Sequence record: PZ715803.1
From: a phage
Strand: one strand, 5' to 3'
DNA length: 51,987 nucleotides
The notes beneath the pieces were generated by a model. That model worked only from the letters and a program-made list of their open reading frames with translations, was not told where the DNA came from and ran no database searches. Below, piece after piece: positions 2,373 through 47,434 of this stretch. Position 1 is the first letter of the stretch; each line of letters opens with the position of its first letter. Position numbers and translations under genes: made by a program.

Positions 2373-2742
2373 TAGTTGTTTTGTTTTTTCTGTTTTCTAA
2401 ACGTTCTCAGATGGCAAGAAAACAAATCTGACACGTAAGTTAATGATTAACATGTGTTATTTTTCTTGTTCCCTTGTTCTCTCAGATACGCCGGATTATA
2501 TACATACACATGAATGATGGCACATGCAGATACTCAGAAAGAAAAATCACCACAAACAACCAAAACCACAAGAAACACAGATAACAAGAAAAAACAAATA
2601 TACATACATAAATAAATAAACTATTGATTTTATATGTATATATCTATTTTATTGATTGTTTATTGCTCTTATGTTGTCTAAAATTTGCGCTAAATTTACG
2701 CCGTCTTAAATTCGATAACGCTGGAAAACAAAAAATAACAAG

Positions 2743-2784
2743 TAGCACTTTTTGCTAAACTCGGCTTGCCGGATCGTGTATAGT
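2743..2784 (+). promoter_or_regulatory. Variant copy of the 19-bp element (TAGCACTTTTTGCTAAA) followed 21 bp later by TATAGT; promoter of the lipoprotein cassette
   Basis: Same architecture as the element copies upstream of early genes; CAACAACAA leader then AGGAG RBS. Confidence 0.45.
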
Positions 2785-2815: not shown

Positions 2816-3091
2816 ATGAAAAAATTAATCGCAGTTATCGCCACCGTAGCCGCCCTGACCGGATGTTCTTCTTCGCCTACTGGCAACTTCAAGGAGATCG
2901 ATTGCACGGCAAAATTTAACGTTAAAACATTCCCTGTTAACGGATTCCATGAAGTTAAAATTAATGCGGTACGCGAAAACAGATTCAGCCAAAAGCAATA
3001 CAGGTTGAGCGTTGACAATAAAGAAGTTAAATTTATCAACCGTTGGCAAGATGAAAGAAAATTCATTGATTTGAGGTGCAAAAATGGCTGA
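2816..3091 (+). CDS. Outer-membrane lipoprotein, candidate Cor/Llp-like superinfection-exclusion protein
   Basis: Signal peptide with lipobox LTGC; AGGAG RBS; ORF-track start at 2810 is a TTG, ATG at 2816 preferred. Confidence 0.8.
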   Translation: MKKLIAVIATVAALTGCSSSPTGNFKEIDCTAKFNVKTFPVNGFHEVKINAVRENRFSQKQYRLSVDNKEVKFINRWQDERKFIDLRCKNG

Positions 3092-3362
3092 ATATGGGTA
3101 TGCAATATATGATGAGCAAGGTAGAAATGTTACTGGCCTTTTAACTCCAGTTTTTTTCTTGGATAAATTTACTCAATCATCCGGCAGTAAGACCTACTCA
3201 AACAGGCCTCCAGGTAAGTCTTTGAAAGCAATATATGTTGGAATGAATTCGTGGCGAGGAGGCGATCCAGGCGCTCCAAAGTTGGGTGTAAGTGGTGATA
3301 CCGTTACATGGAGTGGACTTTCTGGATCTGACTCAAGATATATATATACTTTTTGGGGGTAA
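3084..3362 (+). CDS. Hypothetical protein
   Basis: 92-aa ORF with GAGGTG RBS; start overlaps lipoprotein stop. Confidence 0.55.
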   Translation: MAEYGYAIYDEQGRNVTGLLTPVFFLDKFTQSSGSKTYSNRPPGKSLKAIYVGMNSWRGGDPGAPKLGVSGDTVTWSGLSGSDSRYIYTFWG

Positions 3363-3364
3363 TA

Positions 3365-3979
3365 ATGTACGGGATGAGCATAAAAAAACCAGACGGTTCA
3401 TTGTGGTTAAGTCCAGATTTCACTCCTGTTAACCTTATAGATAAAGGGAAAATATCAGCAAGAACAGGAACCGTTTTTAATACTTCTATACCAATAAATA
3501 GACCGTGCTTCTTTTTTGTAAGGTTAACATCAAAATCATACATAGCATTTACTCAATTTAATAATGGTGGGAAGCACGCAATAAAGATAGAAAAGTCCGA
3601 CAATCAAGGTGAGGTATTTGTTTATGCTTTTAGCAATATGGTTACTCCTCCTGGTAGTCACGGAATAGCTTTTTATAATGCTAATGGTGAGATGGTTTAT
3701 CATGGAAAGATGAAGCCTTTGGATGCAAAACTTGTATCTGTAAGCGGGATCACTTTTGACGTTAACTTGGGATACCCTTGCGCAATCATGCCATCACTAA
3801 CAGCTTTAAACTCTGTGCGTAATCCGTCTTTAGGTGGATTCATGATATTTGAGTCTCAAGCTGCCGCGTATGGCAACGGGGTATATTCTTTATCTAGGCA
3901 GGTTGCGCAAACTCCTGGTCCTGTTGGTATTTACACGGCATCATCTGTTTTGGTTATAAATTCATCGCACTATGATTAA
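3365..3979 (+). CDS. Hypothetical protein
   Basis: 205-aa ORF; ATG at 3365 after GGGGG; followed by a strong terminator. Confidence 0.6.
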   Translation: MYGMSIKKPDGSLWLSPDFTPVNLIDKGKISARTGTVFNTSIPINRPCFFFVRLTSKSYIAFTQFNNGGKHAIKIEKSDNQGEVFVYAFSNMVTPPGSHGIAFYNANGEMVYHGKMKPLDAKLVSVSGITFDVNLGYPCAIMPSLTALNSVRNPSLGGFMIFESQAAAYGNGVYSLSRQVAQTPGPVGIYTASSVLVINSSHYD

Positions 3980-3986
3980 AATTAAA

Positions 3987-4009
3987 GGGGGCCATGCCCC
4001 CTTTTTTTT
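3987..4009. terminator. Bidirectional intrinsic terminator (GGGGGCCATGCCCCC plus T8) between the plus-strand cassette and the J-like gene
   Basis: Perfect hairpin flanked by A-run and T-run. Confidence 0.7.
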
Positions 4010-7000
4010 ACCAACTTCCGGTTATTCTCCCTATCTCAACCCTCAATCGTCCATTTGCATCTTTCACCTTTAAGCCTTCGTTAGTGAATTTTGTAGCTCC
4101 TTCCCCCGCTCTCGTTCCGTAGTTCTCAAAGTTACCATTTTTATCAAGCCTCCATCCTTGCTGATTCTGAACAAAGTTGTTTGACTGAATAACATTTCCA
4201 ATCATGGCATTCGTGATGGACCCGTTTTTCACTAACAAGCTGTTAATGAAAACTTGGTTGTTTTCAACAACGAAAGGCAAAGTAAACTTACCGCCAGTAG
4301 AGCTAGTCATGATCGCGAACCTGTTAGCATCGAACAAGATTTGCGAGATCAGGCCTTGAGAAGATTGCGACAACTGCATGATCATTCCCGCGCTGTACTT
4401 CTGCCCCTTGTAAGTAAGGCCCAATTTCATAGCGTACTTAGCGCCAACCGAATCAACGTTAGCCCACGAATCAAGTTTTTCGGCTAGTGCTGATTCAACG
4501 TCTCCGAATTTGGCTGTTAAAGCCTGGTCAGCCTGAACCCTTGCCTCTGTCTCATTAGCGATCGCCTGTCTTACTTCTGATATGTTCGCCTCAACATCAA
4601 CCTTGATTGCATCGTTAAGGTCATTAATCTCTTTCGAAAACTTAGCGTCAAGCTGCTGAACGGCTTGCGCACGCGCTTCTGATTCATTGGTAATGGTTTG
4701 CCTTACCTCGCCAATACTTGCAGCCGTATCTCGTTTTACGCCGTCTATTTCCTGCGTAAATTTAGAATCAAGTTGCTGCACTTGAGTAGCTCGCGTCTCT
4801 GATTCGTTGGCAATCGCTTCCTGAACGGTTTTGATACTTGAAACTATATCTTCATCAATTGACGCCCTTAACTCTTCGATTTGAGTTACGCGCGCCTCAG
4901 TTTCGTTGGCGATAAGCTCAAGAGCATGACCATATTCAGCCTTACGCTTTCCGTTTTGTACTCGCGTCCACTTCACATCAGCATCGTTTGCCAATGCGTT
5001 CTGGATGATTGATTGCGCCTGGTCTTTGATTTTGTTGGCACTGTCTATGGCGTTCTCTTTGATTTCTTGACCCGCTTCGGTATCAAAAATCTTGTCCAGA
5101 ATGTCGCCTAAAACAGATTCAACATCATCTGACGCCATGCCGCGAACAAAGTCAGTCCAGCCTGAAACGTTGCCGATCCTGTCAACGCTACGGATTCTAT
5201 ACCATACAACTTGACCCGCTGGTAACGTGCTATGCCAATACTCATATTGAGGATATGGAATCAGCGTAAGCAGGCTTGAGTTTTCAACCGTTCCGTCTGG
5301 AGATTGGTGAAGCTCAATGTAAGCCGTATCGCCTGATCCTTCCGGCATACCCCATTTGACACGAATGCCAAAAACTTCATTATCAGAAGCTGTAAGATTA
5401 ATCGGCGCTCCTGGCTCGCCAACTTTACCTGTCAGGGTGGCGGTTGCAATCTTTGACCACGGGGAAGTGTTCCCGCTTGCAGAAACAGATCTAACCCTTA
5501 CTTGATAGTTCCCCGAGTAAATCCCTTCTACCTCTATCTCTTTGTTAGCTGTCTGCGGCGTATTCAGCCAGTTGCCATCACCTTTTCGCCATTGCATTTC
5601 ATACAGTGACGCATAAGGCACTTTTTCCCACGACACAACCATAGTTTCAACGCTGACACCCTGCACTACGCGAGAATAAGATGAGATCTGCACGTTCTCC
5701 GGCGCTACCATCACGTCAGGCTGAACAATTGAAGTTGGTCTGTCATCAATGTTTACGCCATAATCAATCTCGTCGTATTTGTTCGGATCGTACTCTACAG
5801 CCGTGATTGAATAGGTAAACTCGTTTTCGTCATCACCCTTGCTGATAGTTGTCACAACGTATTGCTGCAACGCAAGGTCAGTGCGGTCAATCGCAAAAAC
5901 AGTGTCAGGCTTAACATCAAAACCAAATCCAATATTTAACTCAATGGTTTTTCCGTCTGCGCTAACCTTTGAGATCGTGCGCTTAACTGGCTTGCCGTCC
6001 GGCTTGTTGATGATAATAAAATCACCAGGACGAGCATCAACCTTAAACGGAACGAAAACCTGCAATCCTGAAACTTCCATCACTCGGCCCGATAGGTTTA
6101 ACGTTAGGTTGCTGCTCTGAAAATTATCAGCGATAGCAATCACATCACCTATTGATGGAATCATCCCCTCTAGTCCGGTAGCAAAGTTTACAGTAGTGCT
6201 TCTAAGGTTTGTTTTCAAAACCCACCGACCGCGACGATTCGCTTCGCTCCTGCGTGTACACCCGATCGCTGTAATGCTTGTTGGGTTGTATCCAAATCGT
6301 AATGCCGCCTCAGTATCAAAAACCCCCTCTACGTCCTGCTGATACATGTTTTGTTCGTCGTCAAACGTCACGTTACACTGCGTGTACATGCTTTTTTCGC
6401 TTGCGGTTGTGTACTGAAAATCACCGTTGATGACGTTTTCATTAGTAAACACGTATGATGGATCGCGCGGCTTATCAATCACGATTGATAAACTCTCACC
6501 ATTCCAAAAGCTCATTCCGCGAAAGATTGAGCAAATGTCACGGATTAGCTGATAAGCCTCAACCTGATTCTGGATCACCACATCGCATAGGTAGCGAGGC
6601 TCTGTACCGCCCTTACCGTCTGGAACTTTCTGATCACAGTAAACACCAGCCTCGTATAAGCTCCACTTGTCGATCTGTATTCCTAACTCTCGCTGGTCAA
6701 GCCCATAACGCTGATTCGTTACCAGATCATAAAGAACCCAAGCAGGATTATTTGACCACGCTTTTTTAAAAGTCCCATCCCATGACCCGCGATATTCTCT
6801 TGATATTGGATCGTAGTTGCTTGGCACATTAATAATCTTCCATTTCTTTTTTATAGAAATGTTAGGGATTTGCGTAGGAAACAATTCGCTGTCAAATTCT
6901 ACGAATACAAGGCCAGTCAGAGGATAACGGAATTTTGCATCTACAACCTCAGCGTAACTTTGCAGTTTGATTTTATCAGTCACCTTTGAAGATGTGCTGT

Positions 7001-7586
7001 CTGGAGTCAGTCGCTTGACCCTGATTAAAACGCGCTCATCAAACTTAGGAAGATCAATCCTTCTGCTGCGGTCATATCCTGATCTTGTCTTGCCGTCAAT
7101 TACATCTCTCATAACCTCGCTATAAGAACCGCCATCAACAGCCATATCTACGGCATATTGAACCCTTACACCAACAAGATCGCCGTTATCCTCCTGTTTT
7201 ATGCCAGTTGGCATCAGAATCTTGATTCTGATTGCGGAAAGATTTTTGTTTGTCACAGAGATAATATAGGGATTGTCTGCTGTAATATCTCGCGAAACTG
7301 TCACCTCGCTTGATGTGTCAGTAAACCCCTGGATGTAATCTTGCGTCTGTGTGCCTGGTCTATATTCAGCCGTTACCCCCTCATAGTTAACAGTGCCATC
7401 GCTGGCAATGACAGGAACATCATCAAGATAAAGATCACGCAACGTGAAATCTGGATCGCACTCGCCATCAGATACAGCCAGCAAAACTTTAATCTTGTTT
7501 ATCGAGATCAGGTTATCTTCCATCTCTTTTGGCACGTATGGCTTTTTGCTTCCGCCCTTACTGCCGCTTATCATATATTTAGCCAT
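4008..7586 (-). CDS. Tail tip / host-specificity protein (lambda J-like central fibre)
   Basis: 1193 aa; last gene of the M-L-K-I-J order; coiled-coil heptad repeats in the C-terminal third; start at MAKYMISG. Confidence 0.85.
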   Translation of the reverse strand: MAKYMISGSKGGSKKPYVPKEMEDNLISINKIKVLLAVSDGECDPDFTLRDLYLDDVPVIASDGTVNYEGVTAEYRPGTQTQDYIQGFTDTSSEVTVSRDITADNPYIISVTNKNLSAIRIKILMPTGIKQEDNGDLVGVRVQYAVDMAVDGGSYSEVMRDVIDGKTRSGYDRSRRIDLPKFDERVLIRVKRLTPDSTSSKVTDKIKLQSYAEVVDAKFRYPLTGLVFVEFDSELFPTQIPNISIKKKWKIINVPSNYDPISREYRGSWDGTFKKAWSNNPAWVLYDLVTNQRYGLDQRELGIQIDKWSLYEAGVYCDQKVPDGKGGTEPRYLCDVVIQNQVEAYQLIRDICSIFRGMSFWNGESLSIVIDKPRDPSYVFTNENVINGDFQYTTASEKSMYTQCNVTFDDEQNMYQQDVEGVFDTEAALRFGYNPTSITAIGCTRRSEANRRGRWVLKTNLRSTTVNFATGLEGMIPSIGDVIAIADNFQSSNLTLNLSGRVMEVSGLQVFVPFKVDARPGDFIIINKPDGKPVKRTISKVSADGKTIELNIGFGFDVKPDTVFAIDRTDLALQQYVVTTISKGDDENEFTYSITAVEYDPNKYDEIDYGVNIDDRPTSIVQPDVMVAPENVQISSYSRVVQGVSVETMVVSWEKVPYASLYEMQWRKGDGNWLNTPQTANKEIEVEGIYSGNYQVRVRSVSASGNTSPWSKIATATLTGKVGEPGAPINLTASDNEVFGIRVKWGMPEGSGDTAYIELHQSPDGTVENSSLLTLIPYPQYEYWHSTLPAGQVVWYRIRSVDRIGNVSGWTDFVRGMASDDVESVLGDILDKIFDTEAGQEIKENAIDSANKIKDQAQSIIQNALANDADVKWTRVQNGKRKAEYGHALELIANETEARVTQIEELRASIDEDIVSSIKTVQEAIANESETRATQVQQLDSKFTQEIDGVKRDTAASIGEVRQTITNESEARAQAVQQLDAKFSKEINDLNDAIKVDVEANISEVRQAIANETEARVQADQALTAKFGDVESALAEKLDSWANVDSVGAKYAMKLGLTYKGQKYSAGMIMQLSQSSQGLISQILFDANRFAIMTSSTGGKFTLPFVVENNQVFINSLLVKNGSITNAMIGNVIQSNNFVQNQQGWRLDKNGNFENYGTRAGEGATKFTNEGLKVKDANGRLRVEIGRITGSW

Positions 7587-13506: not shown

Positions 13507-13520
13507 CTCAAGATCTCCTT

Positions 13521-13539
13521 ATAGCACTTTTTGTTAAAA
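13521..13539 (+). promoter_or_regulatory. 19-bp element copy (ATAGCACTTTTTGTTAAAA), antisense to the late operon; abuts the RBS of the G chaperone gene
   Basis: Exact consensus; followed on plus strand by TTGATT repeats and TAGATT. Confidence 0.5.
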
Positions 13540-17266: not shown

Positions 17267-17271
17267 AGATG

Positions 17272-17290
17272 ATAGCACTTTTTGTTAAAC
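17272..17290 (+). promoter_or_regulatory. 19-bp element copy (ATAGCACTTTTTGTTAAAC), antisense orientation upstream of the major capsid gene
   Basis: 18/19 match to consensus. Confidence 0.5.
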
Positions 17291-26110: not shown

Positions 26111-26129
26111 TTTTAACAAAAAGTGCTAT
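26111..26129 (-). promoter_or_regulatory. 19-bp element copy, then 22 bp, then TAAAGT; promoter module for 25841..26053 and downstream genes
   Basis: Exact consensus on minus strand abutting the stop codon of 26129..26416. Confidence 0.55.
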
Positions 26130-26416
26130 TAGCTCAGATAGTAAAGCTCATCGCGCACAAAATCGTCAAAATCAGATTGCGTTAATGGTCGATCCTCTAA
26201 TGCTGCCTGTTCAATCATTTCAACCAGGGCGCAATCCATATCAAGGTAATGAGCATCAAAATCATACCATGACGCCATTTCACGCGCCCATGAGCGGCAA
26301 TTCTTGAATCCGTAACTGCGGATACAGTTTGCCGTGTGAAATGAGTCATTCCAACCACGCTCAAGCGCTGCCTTTTCGAATGCGTTAATCAACATCTTAC
26401 GATTGCTTTTAGCCAT
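26129..26416 (-). CDS. Hypothetical protein
   Basis: 95 aa; GGAGG RBS. Confidence 0.65.
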   Translation of the reverse strand: MAKSNRKMLINAFEKAALERGWNDSFHTANCIRSYGFKNCRSWAREMASWYDFDAHYLDMDCALVEMIEQAALEDRPLTQSDFDDFVRDELYYLS

Positions 26417-28932: not shown

Positions 28933-28951
28933 TTTTAACAAAAAGTGCTAT
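28933..28951 (-). promoter_or_regulatory. 19-bp element copy, then 22 bp containing a hairpin, then TATAGT
   Basis: Exact consensus; last base overlaps the phosphatase stop codon. Confidence 0.55.
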
Positions 28952-29742
28952 TACGCATTAACAAAATCGCCGTCGTCGTGTTCAAAGCACCAGCCAAAAC
29001 CTTTTTCATCCCACAAAAAGAATCGGTTTTTATCATGGCTATGAACATCATAAACCTTGCCTTTGATAAAGCTGGCATTGACCAGGCTGTCTTTGCTGCC
29101 GACGAATCGGGCGCGCTTCGTGATCTTGATTGATTCCACGCCGCAACGCAAACATTTACCATCAACCACGCTAAAACAGTGCTCGCCTTCGCATTCGATT
29201 TTTGACTTCAATTCATCCACGCCGTGAGATTGTATGTGAGCGTGTGGCTTGTCGTATTCCGTGACCTGATAGGTTGTGATCCCCAAGCTGCGGAAGTGCT
29301 TAACCACGTTCGGCGAATCGTCAAAGGCGCAAACAATGTTGTCCAGGCCAATAGCGCGCAAGGCTTCTTCTTTAATAACCGTATCCTTTCGGTTGTCCTC
29401 CTGGCGGCGCATGATGATTTCGTCAAACTTCACGCCGTTCTCATTCAACCATTTGCAGGTTTCATAGCGAACCTCGTCGCTGCGTCCGGTCAAGATGACG
29501 ATGGCAAATCCCGACACCCATAAACCGTTAATAACCGCGATAGTGCTTTTAATCGGTGAATCTCCGGCGGCGGCCCTGTTAAACTCGCGCCACGATTCCG
29601 TAAGGTGCAAGTTTTCAGTTGGCAGCAAATGCAAACGATGCGATCCGTCCGATAGTGTTCCGTCCAGGTCAACGATAACAATCGGCTTGCTGGTGATTAA
29701 TTCGTACTTCTTGCCCCACAGTTCGAAAGTGTATTTTTTCAT
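28951..29742 (-). CDS. HAD-family phosphatase (polynucleotide 3'-phosphatase-like) with Cys-rich C-terminal region
   Basis: DxDGT motif (VDLDGTLSDG) near N-terminus; C-terminal CxxC...CxxC. Confidence 0.75.
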   Translation of the reverse strand: MKKYTFELWGKKYELITSKPIVIVDLDGTLSDGSHRLHLLPTENLHLTESWREFNRAAAGDSPIKSTIAVINGLWVSGFAIVILTGRSDEVRYETCKWLNENGVKFDEIIMRRQEDNRKDTVIKEEALRAIGLDNIVCAFDDSPNVVKHFRSLGITTYQVTEYDKPHAHIQSHGVDELKSKIECEGEHCFSVVDGKCLRCGVESIKITKRARFVGSKDSLVNASFIKGKVYDVHSHDKNRFFLWDEKGFGWCFEHDDGDFVNA

Positions 29743-30246: not shown

Positions 30247-30265
30247 TTTTAACAAAAAGTGCTAT
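30247..30265 (-). promoter_or_regulatory. 19-bp element copy, then 21 bp, then TATAAT
   Basis: Exact consensus element and consensus -10 hexamer. Confidence 0.6.
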
Positions 30266-30414
30266 TTCTTAATACATAGCGTGTGAGTGTACGCATAAAA
30301 CCTGTTGTTGTTCTTGATCTGCTCTCGCGCCTCAATGCAAGATTGCTGGCTATTCATTTCGATATGGTCAACGCCGCCATCAATCATAAGAATCAGCAAA
30401 ATCCAGGTAGCCAT
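30262..30414 (-). CDS. Small hydrophobic protein (about 50 aa, below ORF-track cutoff)
   Basis: ATG with GAGGTGAGAG upstream; stop codon TAG lies inside the element copy. Confidence 0.3.
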   Translation of the reverse strand: MATWILLILMIDGGVDHIEMNSQQSCIEAREQIKNNNRFYAYTHTLCIKK

Positions 30415-31463: not shown

Positions 31464-31482
31464 TTTTAACAAAAAGTGCTAT
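31464..31482 (-). promoter_or_regulatory. 19-bp element copy, then 22 bp, then CATAAT
   Basis: Exact consensus; directly downstream of the stop of 31483..31668. Confidence 0.55.
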
Positions 31483-31668
31483 TTAGAATTTTACCTCTTC
31501 CACAAGCTCAACCATCTTGTAACCAAGACGATAAGAGTCACCGAACAACAAGATCCCCATAAATTCATCGTGGCTTATTGACTCTTTGCCAACCGTTCTA
31601 AGCTCTCCGTTGTGAATCACAGTATCGCCGATCTTGATTTCTGATTTATGGACTAATTTCGTTTTCAT
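31483..31668 (-). CDS. Hypothetical protein
   Basis: 61 aa. Confidence 0.55.
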   Translation of the reverse strand: MKTKLVHKSEIKIGDTVIHNGELRTVGKESISHDEFMGILLFGDSYRLGYKMVELVEEVKF

Positions 31669-31926: not shown

Positions 31927-31945
31927 TTTTAACAAAAAGTGCTAT
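31927..31945 (-). promoter_or_regulatory. 19-bp element copy, then 22 bp containing hairpin GCCAGGC..GCCTGGC, then CATAAT
   Basis: Exact consensus; stop codon of the upstream lipoprotein gene embedded in the element. Confidence 0.55.
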
Positions 31946-32202
31946 TTAATATCTGTTGTGACTTGCTGGTGCATTACGTTCTTTCCGCTGTTGTACGTGC
32001 TATCCGTTGCGCCTTTGCAATTGGTGTAATAGATCGCGCGACCGTTATCATAGAATCTGTATGCTGTGCATCCGTCAACAGTGAACAGGCGACCGACTTT
32101 GAAATCTGACTCCACGCCTACGACAACCGTTGATTCTGATGCCTTTTCGCATCCGGTCAGGAGTGTCATTGCCGCCAAAACGCCGATTAATGCCTTTTTC
32201 AT
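31942..32202 (-). CDS. Lipoprotein (second predicted lipoprotein; candidate receptor-masking / superinfection-exclusion protein)
   Basis: Signal peptide with lipobox LTGC; two additional Cys. Confidence 0.7.
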   Translation of the reverse strand: MKKALIGVLAAMTLLTGCEKASESTVVVGVESDFKVGRLFTVDGCTAYRFYDNGRAIYYTNCKGATDSTYNSGKNVMHQQVTTDIK

Positions 32203-32666
32203 TATTGCTCCTCCTCTTTGATGATTTCGCGGATCATATCCTGGTAGCGGCTTACGCCCTCACAAGCTCCAGCCAGTTTATCCCCTTCCAGGTCCACGAT
32301 GTTCGGGATTGCTGCCAGTAAGCGATCGGCAAACTTTTTGATCGCCCTTGCCTTGATGGCTGGCAATTCTTCGGGTGTGATGATTTTCCTTTTCGATTCG
32401 CGCACCATGCGGAAAACGTAAAATTTATCATCTTCCGTTTCCTCGACCTTGATACTTACCCGACCTGCGGCCCTTACTTCTGGAACGCGGTTGATAATGG
32501 TCCGGCTGTAGGATGAACTGCGCGTGATCTTGTAGCAGTCGTCACCGCTTAACATTCCGGCCAGGTCAATTAGTGACATTTTATACTCTTCAATATCGCC
32601 ACTAGCCAGGCGGCGACCAAGCTCGCGAAGCCAATCGCAATAGTCCTTAGTGGTCTTCTGTTCCAT
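32202..32666 (-). CDS. Hypothetical early protein (first gene of leftward early operon)
   Basis: ATG 32666 with GGAGG RBS downstream of a near-consensus sigma70 promoter. Confidence 0.65.
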   Translation of the reverse strand: MEQKTTKDYCDWLRELGRRLASGDIEEYKMSLIDLAGMLSGDDCYKITRSSSYSRTIINRVPEVRAAGRVSIKVEETEDDKFYVFRMVRESKRKIITPEELPAIKARAIKKFADRLLAAIPNIVDLEGDKLAGACEGVSRYQDMIREIIKEEEQ

Positions 32667-32697: not shown

Positions 32698-32725
32698 ATT
32701 ATAAAAGCTATTTGGTGCGTGTCAA
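32698..32725 (-). promoter_or_regulatory. Near-consensus sigma70 promoter (TTGACA-16 bp-TATAAT) for the leftward early operon
   Basis: Both hexamers consensus, read on minus strand about 30 bp upstream of the first early gene. Confidence 0.55.
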
Positions 32726-33159
32726 TGTTTTTGTTGTATTCAAAACGTTACCAATATCGAAAAACTACAAAATCATGCGCAAGTTATTGATTTCGCGGCT
32801 GTTATTTTTCTGTTCACGCTGTTAACGCAATCCGCCGGAAAAAGTATATATACATATGCAATCCGCCGCGCGCGCAACTATCCATATATGCCCACACACA
32901 ACCACACCATAACCAACAAAAAGCACTGTAACAGTGAGAACAAAAAGAAAACATTATAGATATATATAAATAAATAATCTTTATTTTCAATGTATTATAG
33001 AGGGATTTTTTTGTTTTTTCCGTTTTCGCTACACCGGAAAACCGCGCGGAAACATGCCGCCTGAAATCGGTAACAGGGGTGAACAAAAGACAACAACCAC
33101 TGACAGCCAGGCAAAAAAGTGAGGCAAGAGGGGAAGGTTTCACTATCTCCCCTGCAACC

Positions 33160-33250
33160 AATGATTAAACGTGATTGCTTTTCTCATCAAATTTGCAAAG
33201 GCAATCATCATTTTGACGTGATTTGATTACGAATGATTACTTTTGATTAT
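33160..33250 (+). repeat. Cluster of TGATT(A) direct repeats at 10-11 bp phasing (iteron-like)
   Basis: TGATTAC, TGATTAC, TGATTAT at about 33224, 33234, 33244, plus TGATTA/TGATTG at about 33160-33180. Confidence 0.45.
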
Positions 33251-33280
33251 TTCTATCGCAATCCTGGCGCTAACCGTCAA

Positions 33281-33299
33281 ATAGCACTTTTTGTTAAAA
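33281..33299 (+). promoter_or_regulatory. 19-bp element copy, then 22 bp, then TACATT; promoter of the rightward early operon
   Basis: Exact consensus; CATCGAAAC leader and GGAGA RBS follow. Confidence 0.55.
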
Positions 33300-33358
33300 C
33301 TCAGGCCACCTGATCGGGTACATTGCACACATCGAAACGAACCGCTCAGGAGATAGCA

Positions 33359-34320: not shown

Positions 34321-34584
34321 ATGAAAATTAATGCACCTATTCCAGTTAAGCGCAAAGCACGTTTGCTCAACAACGGATGTTACGCCCTGCGGCCTGCATT
34401 TAAGGATCGCACATTTCCGGTTATCGTTAACGTGTCTCACGTAAGCCGTAGCGGGAATATGGTATTCGTTAAAGGTGAAGATCTGACGGCGCTTGGATTC
34501 TATGGCGGTGTTCACGGCGAACCGCTCGGATTCTGGCTTGTAGATCTGTTAACTGGAGAGCGTGAAATCGAATTCTTGGACTAA
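34321..34584 (+). CDS. Hypothetical protein
   Basis: AAGGAG RBS; 87 aa. Confidence 0.7.
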   Translation: MKINAPIPVKRKARLLNNGCYALRPAFKDRTFPVIVNVSHVSRSGNMVFVKGEDLTALGFYGGVHGEPLGFWLVDLLTGEREIEFLD

Positions 34585-34603
34585 ATAGCACTTTTTGTTA
34601 AAA
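34585..34603 (+). promoter_or_regulatory. 19-bp element copy, then 22 bp, then TACATT
   Basis: Exact consensus immediately after the stop codon of 34321..34584. Confidence 0.55.
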
Positions 34604-36582: not shown

Positions 36583-37293
36583 ATGTATAAAGGTTTAATA
36601 TTCTCCCTATTTGATGGATCTGGCAAAGCCGTTAAAGATTGGGCTGATAATGGCTATAAGTGCATTTGCTTTAATGCTGACGGTGGCGATCACGGTGATT
36701 ACCAGTCAGTGCGCATACAGCATGAGAATATCGAATACGTTAACGTCTGGATTGATGAAAGATTTTACCACCGCGCGCGCTGGGAGGAATGGGGCATTCC
36801 TGACTTTATTATGGCATTTCCGCCGTGCACCGACCTTGCAAATAGCGGATCTCGCCATTGGGCCAAAAAACGCCTTGAGAATCCATCGTTCCAGGATGAG
36901 GCCGCCGACACTTGCAGAATCGCGGCTGATATAGCTGATTATTTCGGTGTTCCTTACATGATCGAAAATCCGGTTGGCAAGTTGTCAACGTTATGGCGAA
37001 AGCCTGATTATACGTTCCATCCGTGCGATTACGCTGGCTATCTGCCGGAAGATGATAAACATCCCGACTTCCCTGATATTATTCCGGCACGGGATCGCTA
37101 TTTTAAGAAAACGTGCCTCTGGACTGGCAACGGCTTTGTTATTCCTCCGCGCGCTTTAATCCTGCCGAAAGAGGAAGACAAAGATAATCCAGGCTGGGCC
37201 AAAACTGGCGGTAAGTCATCGCGCACAAAGATGATCCGCTCCCTCACTCCGCGCGGATTTGCTCGCGCCGTCTTTGAGTCAAACTCAAAATAG
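36583..37293 (+). CDS. Putative DNA (cytosine-5)-methyltransferase-like protein
   Basis: FDGSGK (motif I-like), FPPC (catalytic Pro-Cys, motif IV-like), ENPVG (motif VI-like); ATG 36583 with GAGGT RBS. Confidence 0.5.
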   Translation: MYKGLIFSLFDGSGKAVKDWADNGYKCICFNADGGDHGDYQSVRIQHENIEYVNVWIDERFYHRARWEEWGIPDFIMAFPPCTDLANSGSRHWAKKRLENPSFQDEAADTCRIAADIADYFGVPYMIENPVGKLSTLWRKPDYTFHPCDYAGYLPEDDKHPDFPDIIPARDRYFKKTCLWTGNGFVIPPRALILPKEEDKDNPGWAKTGGKSSRTKMIRSLTPRGFARAVFESNSK

Positions 37294-37308
37294 CACTTTT
37301 TGTTAAAA
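37290..37308 (+). promoter_or_regulatory. 19-bp element copy, then 22 bp containing hairpin GCCAGG..CCTGGC, then CATAAT
   Basis: Exact consensus with stop codon TAG of the MTase gene embedded. Confidence 0.55.
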
Positions 37309-40437: not shown

Positions 40438-40454
40438 GGAGGCATTAAGCCTCC
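40438..40454. terminator. Bidirectional terminator (GGAGGC-ATTAA-GCCTCC plus T-run) at the convergent junction
   Basis: Hairpin overlapping the spanin stop codon; T5CT4 on plus strand. Confidence 0.6.
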
Positions 40455-40840
40455 TTTTTCTTTTCTCTCCAGTAAAGACAAATCAGCACAATTAACACAA
40501 CCACGCATATGATTACTGGATCGTACCATCTGCCGTTATTACCCTGCACGACCTGAATTTTGTCTGCCTTGATGGTATTGGCCTGAATGGTTGATGTTGT
40601 GAAATCCTTCTTGCTGGACGTGTCCACCTTGTCAACCGCAGATTCCTTTATTGTGGTTTTCTGTTTTGTGCTGGCGTCCTGCTTTGCTGTAATGCCAACT
40701 GTCTGCTTCACGTTCTCCGCGCCAGCCTGTGCTGTGATTTCCGGCTTACTGCCGATTAATCCGGTCAGTGGCGTAACGCTTGAACATCCAGACAAGATCA
40801 CCGCCATTGCGATTGGTGCGATTAAAAATTTCTTCATCAT
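40445..40840 (-). CDS. Unimolecular spanin (N-terminal lipoprotein signal plus C-terminal transmembrane helix)
   Basis: Lipobox ILSGCSS, C-terminal hydrophobic helix [16 protein letters not shown]; ATG overlaps endolysin stop. Confidence 0.65.
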
Positions 40841-44438: not shown

Positions 44439-44457
44439 TTTTAACAAAAAGTGCTAT
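44439..44457 (-). promoter_or_regulatory. 19-bp element copy, then 22 bp, then CATAAT; promoter module upstream of dam
   Basis: Exact consensus immediately after the VRR-NUC stop. Confidence 0.55.
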
Positions 44458-44873
44458 TTAAGCATGTATTCAATAGCCAACTTAAACTGATTAAATCCGT
44501 AGGCGACCGCAGCGAATCCTCCTAAGCTGCGAACTCGACGCAAAAAAGCCTTTTGTTCATCGCTGACTGGTGATGCTTTACCCTTGCCTGATTTATTCAC
44601 TCGTTTGATCTCAATCGCTGCAAATGGGTATTTCCCGTTTAAACCAATCAGGATGATGAAATCGCTTACTCCCTTAACCAAGCCGGACTGCTGATCAATC
44701 ATCGCCGTTGCTTTAGACTTCTCATTCTCGTTTACCGTATGCCACGCCAGCAAATAAGGATGAGCATAAGTCAACCACTGAAAACTATCTATCTGGTGAT
44801 TAACTTCCCTTCTCGTGTCGGTTGGATCTCTTTCGTAAAACTCAAGATAATCGCCTTTATCAGTTATAGCCAT
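44454..44873 (-). CDS. VRR-NUC domain nuclease (PD-(D/E)XK)
   Basis: 139 aa; D...E-x-K segment (SDFIILIG...AIEIKR). Confidence 0.7.
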   Translation of the reverse strand: MAITDKGDYLEFYERDPTDTRREVNHQIDSFQWLTYAHPYLLAWHTVNENEKSKATAMIDQQSGLVKGVSDFIILIGLNGKYPFAAIEIKRVNKSGKGKASPVSDEQKAFLRRVRSLGGFAAVAYGFNQFKLAIEYMLK

Positions 44874-46957: not shown

Positions 46958-47434
46958 ATGAAAGATGCACGAATTGCAGTGTCTACGGGTGAGATCGACA
47001 AGCGCACTATTAACGGTAACAACGGAACGCGACGAGGTAAAGACAAAAAGCCACGAAAACACCGAACCGGATTTCTTATCCTGCGAGATGAGGTAAAAGC
47101 AAGCCTGAAATCTCGCCTTGACATTCTGATCGAGTATTACGGCGGCGTTCCTGCTATGGCTCGACGTCTGCGCGTATCTCAGCAAGTCGTTAACCAGTGG
47201 CGAAAGCGTGGTATGATTTCAGCCGCTGGAGCACAAAAGGTGCATAACGACTACAAATATAATGGATGCAAAGGATACCGCGCCTCGTTTTGTCGTCCAG
47301 ATCTGCGGTTTGATTCTAACGGCAAGCCTCTTACTACCCGTTGCGACAAATACGAAATGTTGCGCGTAGTCAAAAATTCAGACTACGAACCAGGCGGACG
47401 ATTCTACAAAGGTGATAACAGCACGAATAGCTAA
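46958..47434 (+). CDS. Helix-turn-helix DNA-binding protein
   Basis: Cro/CI-like HTH segment (MARRLRVSQQVVNQWRKRG); GAGGTGA RBS. Confidence 0.65.
   Translation: MKDARIAVSTGEIDKRTINGNNGTRRGKDKKPRKHRTGFLILRDEVKASLKSRLDILIEYYGGVPAMARRLRVSQQVVNQWRKRGMISAAGAQKVHNDYKYNGCKGYRASFCRPDLRFDSNGKPLTTRCDKYEMLRVVKNSDYEPGGRFYKGDNSTNS

What the first reader, a model, noticed from the sequence alone, without database searches (positions are those of the whole stretch)
31942..32202. Two unrelated predicted lipoproteins, one early and one next to the tail genes
Both 2816..3091 and 31942..32202 have a type II signal peptide with an LTGC lipobox and two further Cys in the mature part. T1-like and T5-like phages use outer-membrane lipoproteins (Cor, Llp) to mask their receptor (FhuA) against superinfection and to protect progeny. 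Finding two such genes in different temporal classes suggests either two receptors, or separate exclusion and progeny-protection functions.
Basis: partly seen in the sequence, partly recalled or inferred. Interest (0 to 1): 0.5.

Follow-up and report, generated by a model that had tools for sequence, protein, structure and literature searches.

The report
Two phage lipoproteins, only one receptor-linked
A T1-like coliphage encodes two small, unrelated lipoproteins: one is the expected receptor-blocking type next to the tail-tip gene, probably aimed at BtuB rather than FhuA, and the other belongs to a widespread phage family of unknown function (DUF4884) that does not change when the phage changes receptor.

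Summary
Both ORFs are real, conserved lipoprotein genes, each with an LTGC lipobox and two further invariant Cys, and their mature parts are unrelated. The window is a complete Warwickvirus (Drexlerviridae) genome, about 99% identical to phage FritzSarasin (Bas04) over the 1.6 kb compared.

**2816..3091 (+)** is the first gene of the variable receptor-binding locus, convergent with gpJ. It is 94% identical to the Bas04 protein. Bas04 uses BtuB, not FhuA. Without its signal peptide it has no detectable similarity to Cor. FhuA-using relatives (Bas05, Bas07, T1) carry a true 75-aa Cor at this position. It is best read as a BtuB-type analogue of Cor, Llp and Rtp45.

**31942..32202 (-)** is the second cistron of a two-gene unit driven by the only perfect sigma-70 consensus promoter in the genome.
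- It belongs to the DUF4884 family: 704 clusters, found in phages and prophages.
- The model is a six-stranded beta sheet (pLDDT 90) with no structural match to solved structures, Llp or Cor among the hits.
- It is 92-100% identical in phages using BtuB or FhuA, so it does not mask the phage's own receptor.

Its function is unknown. My best guess is an early periplasmic factor that is independent of the receptor. The finding is moderately interesting and mostly ordinary.

The parts
31942..32202 (-). Lipoprotein B gene, 86 aa. Signal peptide and lipobox are codons 1-18 (32202..32149); the mature 68 aa are encoded by 32148..31945. C45 codon is 32070..32068 and C62 codon is 32019..32017. DUF4884-family lipoprotein.
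   Evidence: ORF and translation. Pfam DUF4884 at 24.7 bits (cutoff 30) and phrog_6360 at 1.2e-11. The mature part alone still hits phrog_6360 at 1.1e-5. 37 close homologues all carry a precomputed PF16225 assignment. 704 clusters at 50% identity. AF2 model with pLDDT 90.1.
32202..32666 (-). Upstream cistron, a DUF7174 protein of 154 aa if it starts at the ATG at 32666. Its stop overlaps the start of B (TAATG). The longer ORF starting at 32699 would begin inside the promoter -10 element.
   Evidence: Pfam DUF7174 at 4e-51. Sequence. The Bas04 annotation gives 465 nt. The same DUF7174 + lipoprotein pairing is seen in Rtp (rtp1, rtp3).
32698..32725 (-). Perfect sigma-70 consensus promoter, TTGACA-16 nt-TATAAT. 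It is the only 12/12 match in the genome and drives DUF7174 + B.
   Evidence: Conserved as 12/12 in Bas04 and 11/12 in Bas05 and Bas07.
31928..31947 (+). Copy of the 20-nt repeated promoter block. It reads AAATAGCACTTTTTGTTAAA on the minus strand and is followed by CATAAT. It starts the next transcription unit immediately after B.
2816..3091 (+). Lipoprotein A gene, 91 aa. Cys17 is the lipobox Cys; C30 and C88 are invariant. It is the first gene of the receptor-binding locus and a candidate BtuB-directed superinfection-exclusion lipoprotein.
   Evidence: 94% identical to bas04_0025. Bas04 uses BtuB. The mature part is only 17-26% identical to Cor of Bas05, Bas07 and T1.
2740..2784 (+). Promoter-like element upstream of A: AAGTAGCACTTTTTGCTAAAC, 18 nt, then TATAGT. 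It is a member of the repeated promoter family, with 2 mismatches in the 20-nt block.
3084..3362 (+). Accessory protein of the receptor-binding locus, 92 aa (phrog_557, 'outer membrane protein'). It overlaps the end of A by 8 nt.
   Evidence: 92% identical to bas04_0024.
3365..3979 (+). Probable receptor-binding protein, 204 aa from the ATG at 3365 (phrog_425).
   Evidence: phrog_425 at 2.1e-51. 87% identical to bas04_0023. Only 24-26% identical to the FhuA-type proteins of Bas05, Bas07 and T1.
3984..4004 (.). Bidirectional intrinsic terminator (9-bp stem, 6 G-C pairs) shared by the receptor-binding locus and the convergent gpJ gene.
4008..7586 (-). J-like tail tip protein, 1192 aa from the ATG at 7586. 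It is convergent with the A operon.

Best explanation
The window is a whole T1-like (Warwickvirus) genome carrying two functionally distinct small lipoproteins. Both are predicted to be outer-membrane anchored and to face the periplasm.

Lipoprotein A (2816..3091) is the exclusion lipoprotein of the variable receptor-binding locus. By analogy with Llp/FhuA, Cor/FhuA and Rtp45/LptD, it is inferred to bind the periplasmic face of the phage's own receptor and so prevent adsorption of further phages and loss of progeny on debris. That receptor is BtuB, by homology to Bas04.

Lipoprotein B (31942..32202) is a DUF4884-family protein. It is made immediately after infection, as the second cistron of a two-gene unit driven by a consensus host promoter. 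Its 68-aa mature domain is modelled as a six-stranded antiparallel beta sheet. The conserved beta3-beta4 hairpin (DGCTAYRFYDNGRAIYYTNC) is closed by cross-strand Cys45 and Cys62.

The same B protein is kept while the receptor locus is swapped, and the family is spread over phages and prophages of many Gram-negative hosts. I therefore infer that B acts in the periplasm on something other than the phage's own outer-membrane receptor. The target would be a conserved envelope component or a post-adsorption entry step. That would make B a receptor-independent exclusion or envelope-takeover factor.

Shown: gene structure, lipobox, family membership, conservation, distribution, promoter.
Inferred: lipidation, outer-membrane sorting, the disulfide, the target, and the exclusion function.
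For: Identity of the phage and the locus map.

Lipoprotein A:
- It lies in the gpJ-adjacent variable locus.
- It is 94% identical to the Bas04 protein, and its neighbours are 92% and 87% identical.
- Bas04 needs btuB in two independent data sets.
- Within the same subfamily (Tempevirinae), FhuA users Bas05 and Bas07 have a 75-aa Cor at this place. Their mature parts are 53% identical to T1 Cor and only 17-21% identical to A.
- The literature shows that lipoproteins of this locus or class bind the periplasmic face of the receptor: PMC9586334 for Llp, and 10.1101/2025.07.07.663478 for Rtp45.

Lipoprotein B:
- The lipobox and the core RLFTVDGCTAYRF.D..R.IYYT.C.G are invariant over 28 homologues.
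- There are 704 clusters in the exhaustive search, mostly 80-125 aa; 123 of the best 150 carry a recognisable lipobox. 133 of 145 hit DUF4884.
- The model has pLDDT 90.1.
- +2 is Glu in this allele (Asn or Lys in other Drexlerviridae alleles) and Asp in only 4 of 123 across the family. The E. coli +2 rule (established knowledge) then predicts outer-membrane sorting.
- B is 100/98/92/92% identical in Bas04 (BtuB), Bas05 (FhuA), Bas06 (BtuB) and Bas07 (FhuA).
- It is also found in Rtp and Bas02 (LptD), Serratia MTx, Pseudomonas Dolphis and Pseudomonas prophages.
- B alleles assort independently of A alleles.
- The promoter is a perfect sigma-70 consensus and is conserved in relatives.
Against: - No experiment or homologue of known function exists for DUF4884.
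- Pfam scores B just below the DUF4884 cutoff (24.7 vs 30 bits).
- B is an accessory gene. It is absent from T1 and Bas01, and from the early cluster of Bas03, Bas09 and Bas12, so it is not needed for the basic life cycle.
- For A, sequence homology to any proven exclusion protein is not demonstrable without the signal peptide. No BtuB-blocking activity has been shown for this family.
- Lipidation, localisation and the disulfide are predictions.
Confidence: 0.45

Rival explanations
1. One reading: B is a second receptor-masking lipoprotein of the Cor/Llp kind. It would block FhuA or a second outer-membrane receptor used by this phage.
For: It has the same format as Llp, Cor and Rtp45: a small lipoprotein with one predicted disulfide, expressed early. 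A phage could profit from excluding competitors that use another receptor.
Against: - Near-identical B occurs in phages with different receptors, while the receptor-locus lipoprotein switches with the receptor.
- FhuA users Bas05 and Bas07 already carry Cor and would then have two FhuA masks.
- The family core is conserved in phages of Pseudomonas and Serratia and has Bacteroidetes-type lipoboxes among the representatives.
- There is no sequence or fold similarity to Llp or Cor.
- Genome-wide screens of Bas04 found only one outer-membrane protein, BtuB.
Confidence: 0.1
2. B blocks the post-adsorption entry route through DcrB (periplasmic) and SdaC (inner membrane). Bas04-type phages need this route in addition to BtuB. 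The two lipoproteins would then guard two successive entry layers.
For: Bas04 and Bas06 need btuB + sdaC + dcrB, Bas07 needs fhuA + tonB + sdaC + dcrB, and Bas05 needs fhuA + dcrB. All four carry the same B allele. A precedent for exclusion at the inner-membrane step is HK97 gp15, which I cite from my own knowledge. The HK97 entry route (LamB, FkpA, PtsG) is described in 10.1101/2025.12.01.691526.
Against: - The association is weak and confounded by relatedness. The B versus dcrB-dependence table is 4/1/2/3, one-sided p = 0.26 (my own hand calculation).
- Bas01 and Bas12 need dcrB but lack B.
- Bas02 has B but does not need dcrB.
- The family extends to hosts where this route is not known.
Confidence: 0.12
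3. B has nothing to do with exclusion. It would be an envelope-directed accessory factor of another kind, for example an inhibitor of a host periplasmic enzyme or stress pathway, a modulator of vesiculation or lysis timing, or a counter-defence protein.
For: - Accessory distribution.
- Placement among small early genes and prophage accessory genes of unknown function.
- No similarity to any exclusion protein.
- A very strongly conserved core across hosts suggests a conserved host target.
Against: There is no positive evidence for any specific alternative. There were no hits in the NCBIfam or Pfam functional families. A separate u-spanin already covers the lysis lipoprotein role.
Confidence: 0.25
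4. Lipoprotein A is a true member of the Cor family and blocks FhuA, as some database annotations suggest.
For: The full-length protein hits PHROG 1119 'Cor superinfection exclusion protein' at 5.9e-8 and NCBIfam lamb_exclu_cor at E = 0.0014. One GenBank record names the homologue Cor. A has the same Cys layout as T1 Cor, with a Cys-Thr-Ala soon after the lipobox and a Cys near the C-terminus.
Against: - The NCBIfam score of 18.6 is below the cutoff of 31.
- The PHROG hit disappears when the signal peptide is removed.
- The mature part is 17-26% identical to three Cor proteins that are 53-90% identical to each other.
- The closest characterised phage uses BtuB.
- The cassette orientation differs from T1.
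Confidence: 0.05

Closest known systems
Cor (T1, phi80, N15, HK022; PHROG 1119, NCBIfam NF047972)
   Same: For A: a small lipoprotein encoded in the variable locus next to the J-like tail-tip gene, together with phrog_557 and phrog_425 proteins. It has a Cys shortly after the lipobox and a Cys near the C-terminus, and is presumed to block the phage's own receptor from the periplasm.
   Different: - A is 91 aa against 75 aa.
- Its mature sequence is at noise level to Cor (17-26% identity).
- The profile hit is driven by the signal peptide.
- All three genes of the cassette point against gpJ, whereas in T1, Bas05 and Bas07 only cor does.
- The receptor is inferred to be BtuB, not FhuA.
- B shares nothing with Cor beyond the signal peptide.
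Llp of phage T5 (FhuA-Llp complex, PMC9586334) and the BF23 receptor-blocking lipoprotein (from my own knowledge)
   Same: A small periplasm-facing lipoprotein with one disulfide, encoded beside the receptor-binding protein gene. It inactivates a TonB-dependent transporter from the periplasmic side. It is the functional model for A.
Rtp45 / SE_Oeko (LptD-directed exclusion lipoproteins of Rtp and Bas18; 10.1101/2025.07.07.663478)
   Same: The same kind of locus in the same phage group, with an allele matched to the receptor. Rtp itself also carries a B homologue (rtp3, 57% identical) far from Rtp45. Rtp therefore has the same two-lipoprotein layout.
   Different: The receptor (LptD) and the sequence are different. 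The mechanism is shown only for Rtp45.
Pfam DUF4884 (PF16225), PHROG 6360
   Same: B shares the family core LFTxDGCTxYRFxDxGxxxYFTNCxG, the lipobox and the length. 133 of 145 relatives hit the Pfam model, and several GenBank records already label the gene DUF4884.
   Different: B itself scores 24.7 bits, below the cutoff of 30. It lacks the second Cys pair (CGKNC) present in many members. The family has no known function.
Exclusion factors that act after adsorption (HK97 gp15, T4 Imm/Sp, Ltp of Streptococcus phage TP-J34; from my own knowledge)
   Same: They are envelope-located factors that do not depend on which outer-membrane receptor is used. This is the behaviour that the distribution of B suggests.
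   Different: There is no homology. gp15 and Imm are inner-membrane proteins, and Ltp is from a Gram-positive system. Nothing here shows that B blocks DNA entry.

Membership tests
Bacterial lipoprotein (type II signal peptide, PROSITE PS51257 rule) | K/R in the first 7 residues, an uncharged hydrophobic stretch, the lipobox [LIVMFWSTAG]2-[LIVMFYSTAGCQ]-[AGS]-C, and Cys at position 15-35 | tested here: met
   Both A (Cys17) and B (Cys18) pass. Only 6 distinct ORFs among 1120 start candidates pass, and 3 of them are real genes. The lipobox is conserved in all homologues.
Bacterial lipoprotein (type II signal peptide, PROSITE PS51257 rule) | Lgt/LspA/Lnt processing and lipid attachment; sorting to the outer membrane by Lol | not testable with these tools
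   This is a prediction only. +2 is Ser in A and Glu in B, with no Asp, so the E. coli +2 rule predicts the outer membrane.
Cor superinfection exclusion protein (PHROG 1119 / NCBIfam NF047972) | Profile match above the curated cutoff | tested here: not met
   A scores 18.6 bits against the NCBIfam cutoff of 31. The PHROG hit of 5.9e-8 vanishes for the mature part. B has no hit.
Cor superinfection exclusion protein (PHROG 1119 / NCBIfam NF047972) | Sequence similarity of the mature protein to T1 Cor and its orthologues | tested here: not met
   Mature A is 17-26% identical to Cor of Bas05, Bas07 and T1, which are 53-90% identical to each other. tblastn similarity to T1 Cor is confined to residues 1-34.
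Cor superinfection exclusion protein (PHROG 1119 / NCBIfam NF047972) | Blocks FhuA-dependent phages and colicins | not testable with these tools
   The nearest characterised relative, Bas04, uses BtuB rather than FhuA.
Receptor-locus exclusion lipoproteins of small siphophages (Cor, Rtp45, SE_Oeko as a functional class) | Encoded in the variable locus directly downstream of gpJ together with the receptor-binding protein | tested here: met
   A is the first gene of the operon 2816..3979, which is convergent with gpJ and shares its terminator. B is about 24 kb away and does not meet this feature.
Receptor-locus exclusion lipoproteins of small siphophages (Cor, Rtp45, SE_Oeko as a functional class) | The allele changes when the receptor changes | tested here: met
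   For A, the BtuB phages (window, Bas04) carry the 89-91 aa type and the FhuA phages (Bas05, Bas07, T1) carry Cor. B fails this feature: it is 92-100% identical across these same phages.
Receptor-locus exclusion lipoproteins of small siphophages (Cor, Rtp45, SE_Oeko as a functional class) | Binds the periplasmic face of the receptor and abolishes binding of the receptor-binding protein | not testable with these tools
   Shown only for Llp and Rtp45 in the literature.
Llp (phage T5) | Sequence or fold similarity to the solved Llp structure | tested here: not met
Pfam DUF4884 (PF16225) | Score at or above the gathering cutoff of 30 bits | tested here: not met
   B scores 24.7 bits, E = 2e-5.
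Pfam DUF4884 (PF16225) | Homology to recognised members (shared core motif, length, lipobox) | tested here: met
   All 37 close homologues carry a precomputed PF16225 assignment. 133 of 145 relatives from the exhaustive search hit the model, best E = 4.8e-11. The alignment shows the shared core.

The most novel reading that the evidence does not exclude
DUF4884 lipoproteins are a widespread, unrecognised class of phage-encoded periplasmic effectors made immediately after infection. They would act on a conserved envelope component or on the post-adsorption entry step (for this phage, possibly the DcrB/SdaC route). They would give exclusion that does not depend on the outer-membrane receptor. 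T1-like phages would then guard two successive entry layers with two unrelated lipoproteins.
Probability: 0.25. Interest if true: 0.6.

Novelty: new member of a known kind. Interest (0 to 1): 0.35.

Why it matters
For annotation:
- The gene next to gpJ in BtuB-using T1-like phages should not be called Cor or assumed to block FhuA. The database hits behind that name are signal-peptide artefacts.
- The receptor can be read from the locus: BtuB here, by 87-94% identity to Bas04.

For biology:
- The second lipoprotein is a clean, testable candidate. It is a very conserved 68-aa domain under the strongest host-type promoter of the genome.
- It is shared by phages of many Gram-negative hosts and is kept unchanged while receptor modules are swapped.
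- If it turns out to exclude other phages or to remodel the envelope, it would add a receptor-independent layer to phage-phage competition. It would also give a function to a Pfam domain of unknown function.
- If it does nothing measurable, it is one more accessory early gene.

Tried and rejected
1. Cor membership of A. The PHROG and NCBIfam hits were re-tested with the mature part only and vanished.
2. Remote homology between A and B. The hhalign result of 96.5% is a signal-peptide artefact; mature parts give 1.2%.
3. Llp-, Cor- or Rtp45-like fold for B.
5. The 2441-aa protein P0120, which matched B in 12 stretches. It is an Ig_7/PKD repeat protein, not a DUF4884 array.
6. A DUF7174 + DUF4884 two-gene module. 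The pair is conserved in the window and in Rtp, but not in MTx, Dolphis or the Pseudomonas prophage. This is synteny within Drexlerviridae, not a universal pair.
7. A link between B and DcrB dependence. The table is 4/1/2/3, p = 0.26 (hand calculation), so there is no support.
8. Census in bacterial genomes. The first alignment was too diverse to scan. The narrower pattern found only 7 loci, 6 of them in Pseudomonas; two were examined and both are in prophages. This census is incomplete.

Full report
**What the window is.** A 1.6-kb stretch around the finding is 99.0% identical to Escherichia phage FritzSarasin (Bas04; Drexlerviridae, Tempevirinae, Warwickvirus). About 150 T1-like phage records match it. 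The Bas04 map and the window ORF list show that the 51,987-base window is a complete genome. It is reverse-complemented and circularly permuted relative to that record.

**Checking the observation.** Both ORFs are present.
- Lipoprotein A, 2816..3091 (+), begins MKKLIAVIATVAALTGC and has an AAGGAG ribosome-binding site.
- Lipoprotein B, 31942..32202 (-), begins MKKALIGVLAAMTLLTGC and has a GGAGGAG site. Its ATG overlaps the stop codon of the upstream gene (TAATG).
- A PROSITE-style lipoprotein rule was applied to all 1120 start candidates of at least 50 aa. It picks six distinct ORFs. Three are real genes: A, B and the u-spanin at 40445..40837 (-).
- Each mature protein has two further Cys, and these are invariant in homologues that diverge to about 50% identity.
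- The two proteins are unrelated. A profile-profile match comes from the signal peptides and disappears when only the mature parts are compared (probability 1.2%).
- A is the gene next to the tail genes, and B is the one in the small-gene cluster.

**Lipoprotein A.** It is the first gene of a three-gene operon with phrog_557 (3084..3362) and phrog_425 (3365..3979). The operon runs against the J-like tail-tip gene (4008..7586, -) and ends at a shared bidirectional terminator.
- This is the variable locus that the BASEL study and a 2026 preprint link to receptor specificity in Drexlerviridae. It holds a receptor-binding protein and often a cognate exclusion lipoprotein.
- The three window proteins are 94%, 92% and 87% identical to those of Bas04.
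- Bas04 uses BtuB according to the BASEL table. It needs btuB, sdaC and dcrB in RB-TnSeq.
- FhuA-using relatives carry a different protein at this place. Bas05 (same genus), Bas07 and T1 have a 75-aa Cor. Their mature parts are 53-90% identical to each other but only 17-26% identical to A.
- Their putative receptor-binding proteins are likewise only 24-26% identical to the window protein.
- Full-length A does hit the Cor PHROG (5.9e-8) and, below the cutoff, the NCBIfam Cor model. The mature part gives no such hit.
- A shares only the Cys layout with T1 Cor.

A is therefore not a Cor family member by any test I could run. It is the BtuB-locus counterpart of Cor, Llp and Rtp45. Its mechanism is inferred from Llp-FhuA (PMC9586334) and Rtp45-LptDE, where the lipoprotein binds the periplasmic face of the receptor and changes the outer loops.

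**Lipoprotein B: identity and structure.**
- Pfam gives DUF4884 just below the cutoff (24.7 vs 30 bits). PHROGs gives phrog_6360, also with the mature part alone.
- 37 close homologues, mostly on contigs of about 50 kb, all carry a precomputed DUF4884 assignment.
- They share an invariant LTGCEK lipobox region and the invariant core RLFTVDGCTAYRF.D..R.IYYT.C.G.
- An exhaustive HMMER search finds 704 clusters at 50% identity. Most are 80-125 aa; 123 of the best 150 carry a recognisable lipobox. The shared core is LFTxDGCTxYRFxDxGxxxYFTNCxG.
- 133 of 145 of these hit DUF4884.
- With this deep alignment AlphaFold2 gives a confident model (pLDDT 90.1, pTM 0.71). It is a six-stranded antiparallel sheet.
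- In the beta3-beta4 hairpin, Cys45 and Cys62 are cross-strand partners by register. That fits a disulfide, but this is an inference.
- There is thus no detectable relation to Llp, Cor or Rtp45.

**Lipoprotein B: distribution.** tblastn finds it in 119 phage records.
- These include Warwickvirus, Hanrivervirus, Rtp (rtp3), Veterinaerplatzvirus and Guelphvirus.
- They also include a Pantoea phage, Serratia and Erwinia myoviruses, and Pseudomonas phage Dolphis. In the three checked (Rtp, MTx, Dolphis) the gene lies among small genes of unknown function.
- Chromosomal copies found in Pseudomonas sit in prophages, next to an integrase and PHROG-positive genes.
- The decisive comparison is with receptor use. 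B is 100% identical in Bas04 (BtuB), 98% in Bas05 (FhuA), 92% in Bas07 (FhuA) and 92% in Bas06 (BtuB). It is 57% and 52% identical in the LptD phages Rtp and Bas02.
- Across Warwickvirus genomes the B alleles (about 100%, 47% and 43% identity) assort independently of the A alleles.
- B is absent from T1 and Bas01, and from the early cluster of Bas03, Bas09 and Bas12.

B is therefore an accessory gene that does not follow the outer-membrane receptor.

**Expression.**
- B is the second cistron after a DUF7174 gene.
- The pair sits behind TTGACA-16-TATAAT at 32725..32698 (-), the only perfect consensus in the genome. It is conserved as 12/12 or 11/12 in Bas04, Bas05 and Bas07.
- A has its own promoter. 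This belongs to a family marked by a 20-nt block that occurs 19 times in the genome (0.01 expected). In the copies that face a gene, the block is followed by a -10-like hexamer and lies about 55-80 nt upstream of the start codon.
- Neither gene is part of the late tail operon. A difference in timing between them is possible but not shown.

**Mechanism and rivals.** I commit to the following.
- A is a BtuB-directed exclusion and progeny-protection lipoprotein.
- B is an immediately expressed, outer-membrane-anchored periplasmic factor. It would act on something other than the phage's own receptor, either a conserved envelope component or a post-adsorption step (confidence 0.45 for the package).
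- A more specific version is that B blocks the DcrB/SdaC entry route. This is attractive because Bas04-07 all need DcrB and share the same B allele. But the association over ten phages is weak (4/1/2/3, one-sided p = 0.26, my own hand calculation) and is confounded by relatedness.
- A non-exclusion role cannot be excluded.
- There is no literature on DUF4884 function.

**Verdict.**
- A is a new member, the BtuB type, of a known class. Some records mislabel it as Cor.
- B is a member of a known but uncharacterised domain family. Its sequence is already in public phage genomes.
- Nothing here is categorically new. B is nonetheless a good, cheap experimental target.

Noticed in passing
window, 19 sites, e.g. 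2740..2759, 26112..26131, 28934..28953, 30248..30267, 31465..31484, 31928..31947, 33279..33298, 34583..34602, 37288..37307, 44440..44459: A 20-nt block, TTTAACAAAAAGTGCTATTT, occurs 19 times against 0.01 expected. Read on the other strand it is AAATAGCACTTTTTGTTAAAAC, then 16-18 nt, then (T/C)ATAAT. In the copies that face a gene it lies about 55-80 nt upstream of the start codon. It looks like a family of sigma-70-like promoters with a conserved upstream/-35 block, possibly the target of the phage's transcriptional regulator (46958..47434).
   Followed up: partly
window 13519..13538 and 17270..17289 (-): Two copies of the promoter block lie in intergenic gaps of the head/tail gene cluster but point antisense to those genes. 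The 13519 copy runs into a hairpin terminator. They may be antisense transcription units or decayed copies.
   Followed up: no
window 32698..32725 (-): This is the only perfect TTGACA-16-TATAAT in the genome. The longest ORF for the downstream DUF7174 gene (start 32699) begins inside its -10 element. The real start is most likely the ATG at 32666, preceded by GGAGG.
   Followed up: yes
window 40445..40837 (-): A third lipobox protein ([18 protein letters not shown]...) is the u-spanin of the lysis cassette. The phage therefore encodes three predicted lipoproteins, not two.
   Followed up: partly
window 2816..4004 compared with T1 (L015 28607..29850), Bas05 (L019) and Bas07 (L020): In FhuA-type loci the two accessory/receptor-binding genes follow gpJ on the same strand and only cor is inverted. 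In the BtuB-type locus of this phage all three genes, lipoprotein first, are inverted relative to gpJ.
   Followed up: partly
relatives of window 31942..32202 (proteins P0012, P0013, P0057; phages tonijn, tonnikala and others): Near-identical Warwickvirus genomes carry B alleles of about 100%, 47% or 43% identity at the same place. Some proteins combine the allele-1 N-terminal two thirds with a different C-terminal third. This indicates recombination inside the gene. The tether and the last two strands vary, while the central hairpin does not.
   Followed up: partly
preprint 10.64898/2026.04.02.716166, Dataset S1 (Bas04, the 99% relative of this window): Bas04 needs btuB, sdaC and dcrB. This is the classical phage C1 entry route: an outer-membrane receptor, a periplasmic lipoprotein and an inner-membrane transporter. 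The window phage probably shares it.
   Followed up: partly
GenBank records MG065643, MG065649, MG065657, MG065680, MG065681 ('Campylobacter phage' E6, A143, C4, A113, A139): These are 49,946-bp genomes that carry both lipoprotein genes at 53-86% identity and match this T1-like window. The Campylobacter host label looks doubtful.
   Followed up: no
protein P0120 (2441 aa) from the representative search: A large Ig_7/PKD-repeat surface protein matched lipoprotein B in 12 separate stretches (E = 9e-10). It is not a DUF4884 array, and the reason for the repeated match is unexplained.
   Followed up: partly
window 32700..33320: This is a stretch of about 600 bp with no convincing gene, between the two divergent small-gene clusters. 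It contains a lipobox-like ORF (32814..33143, -) that is probably spurious, and AT-rich repeats.
   Followed up: no
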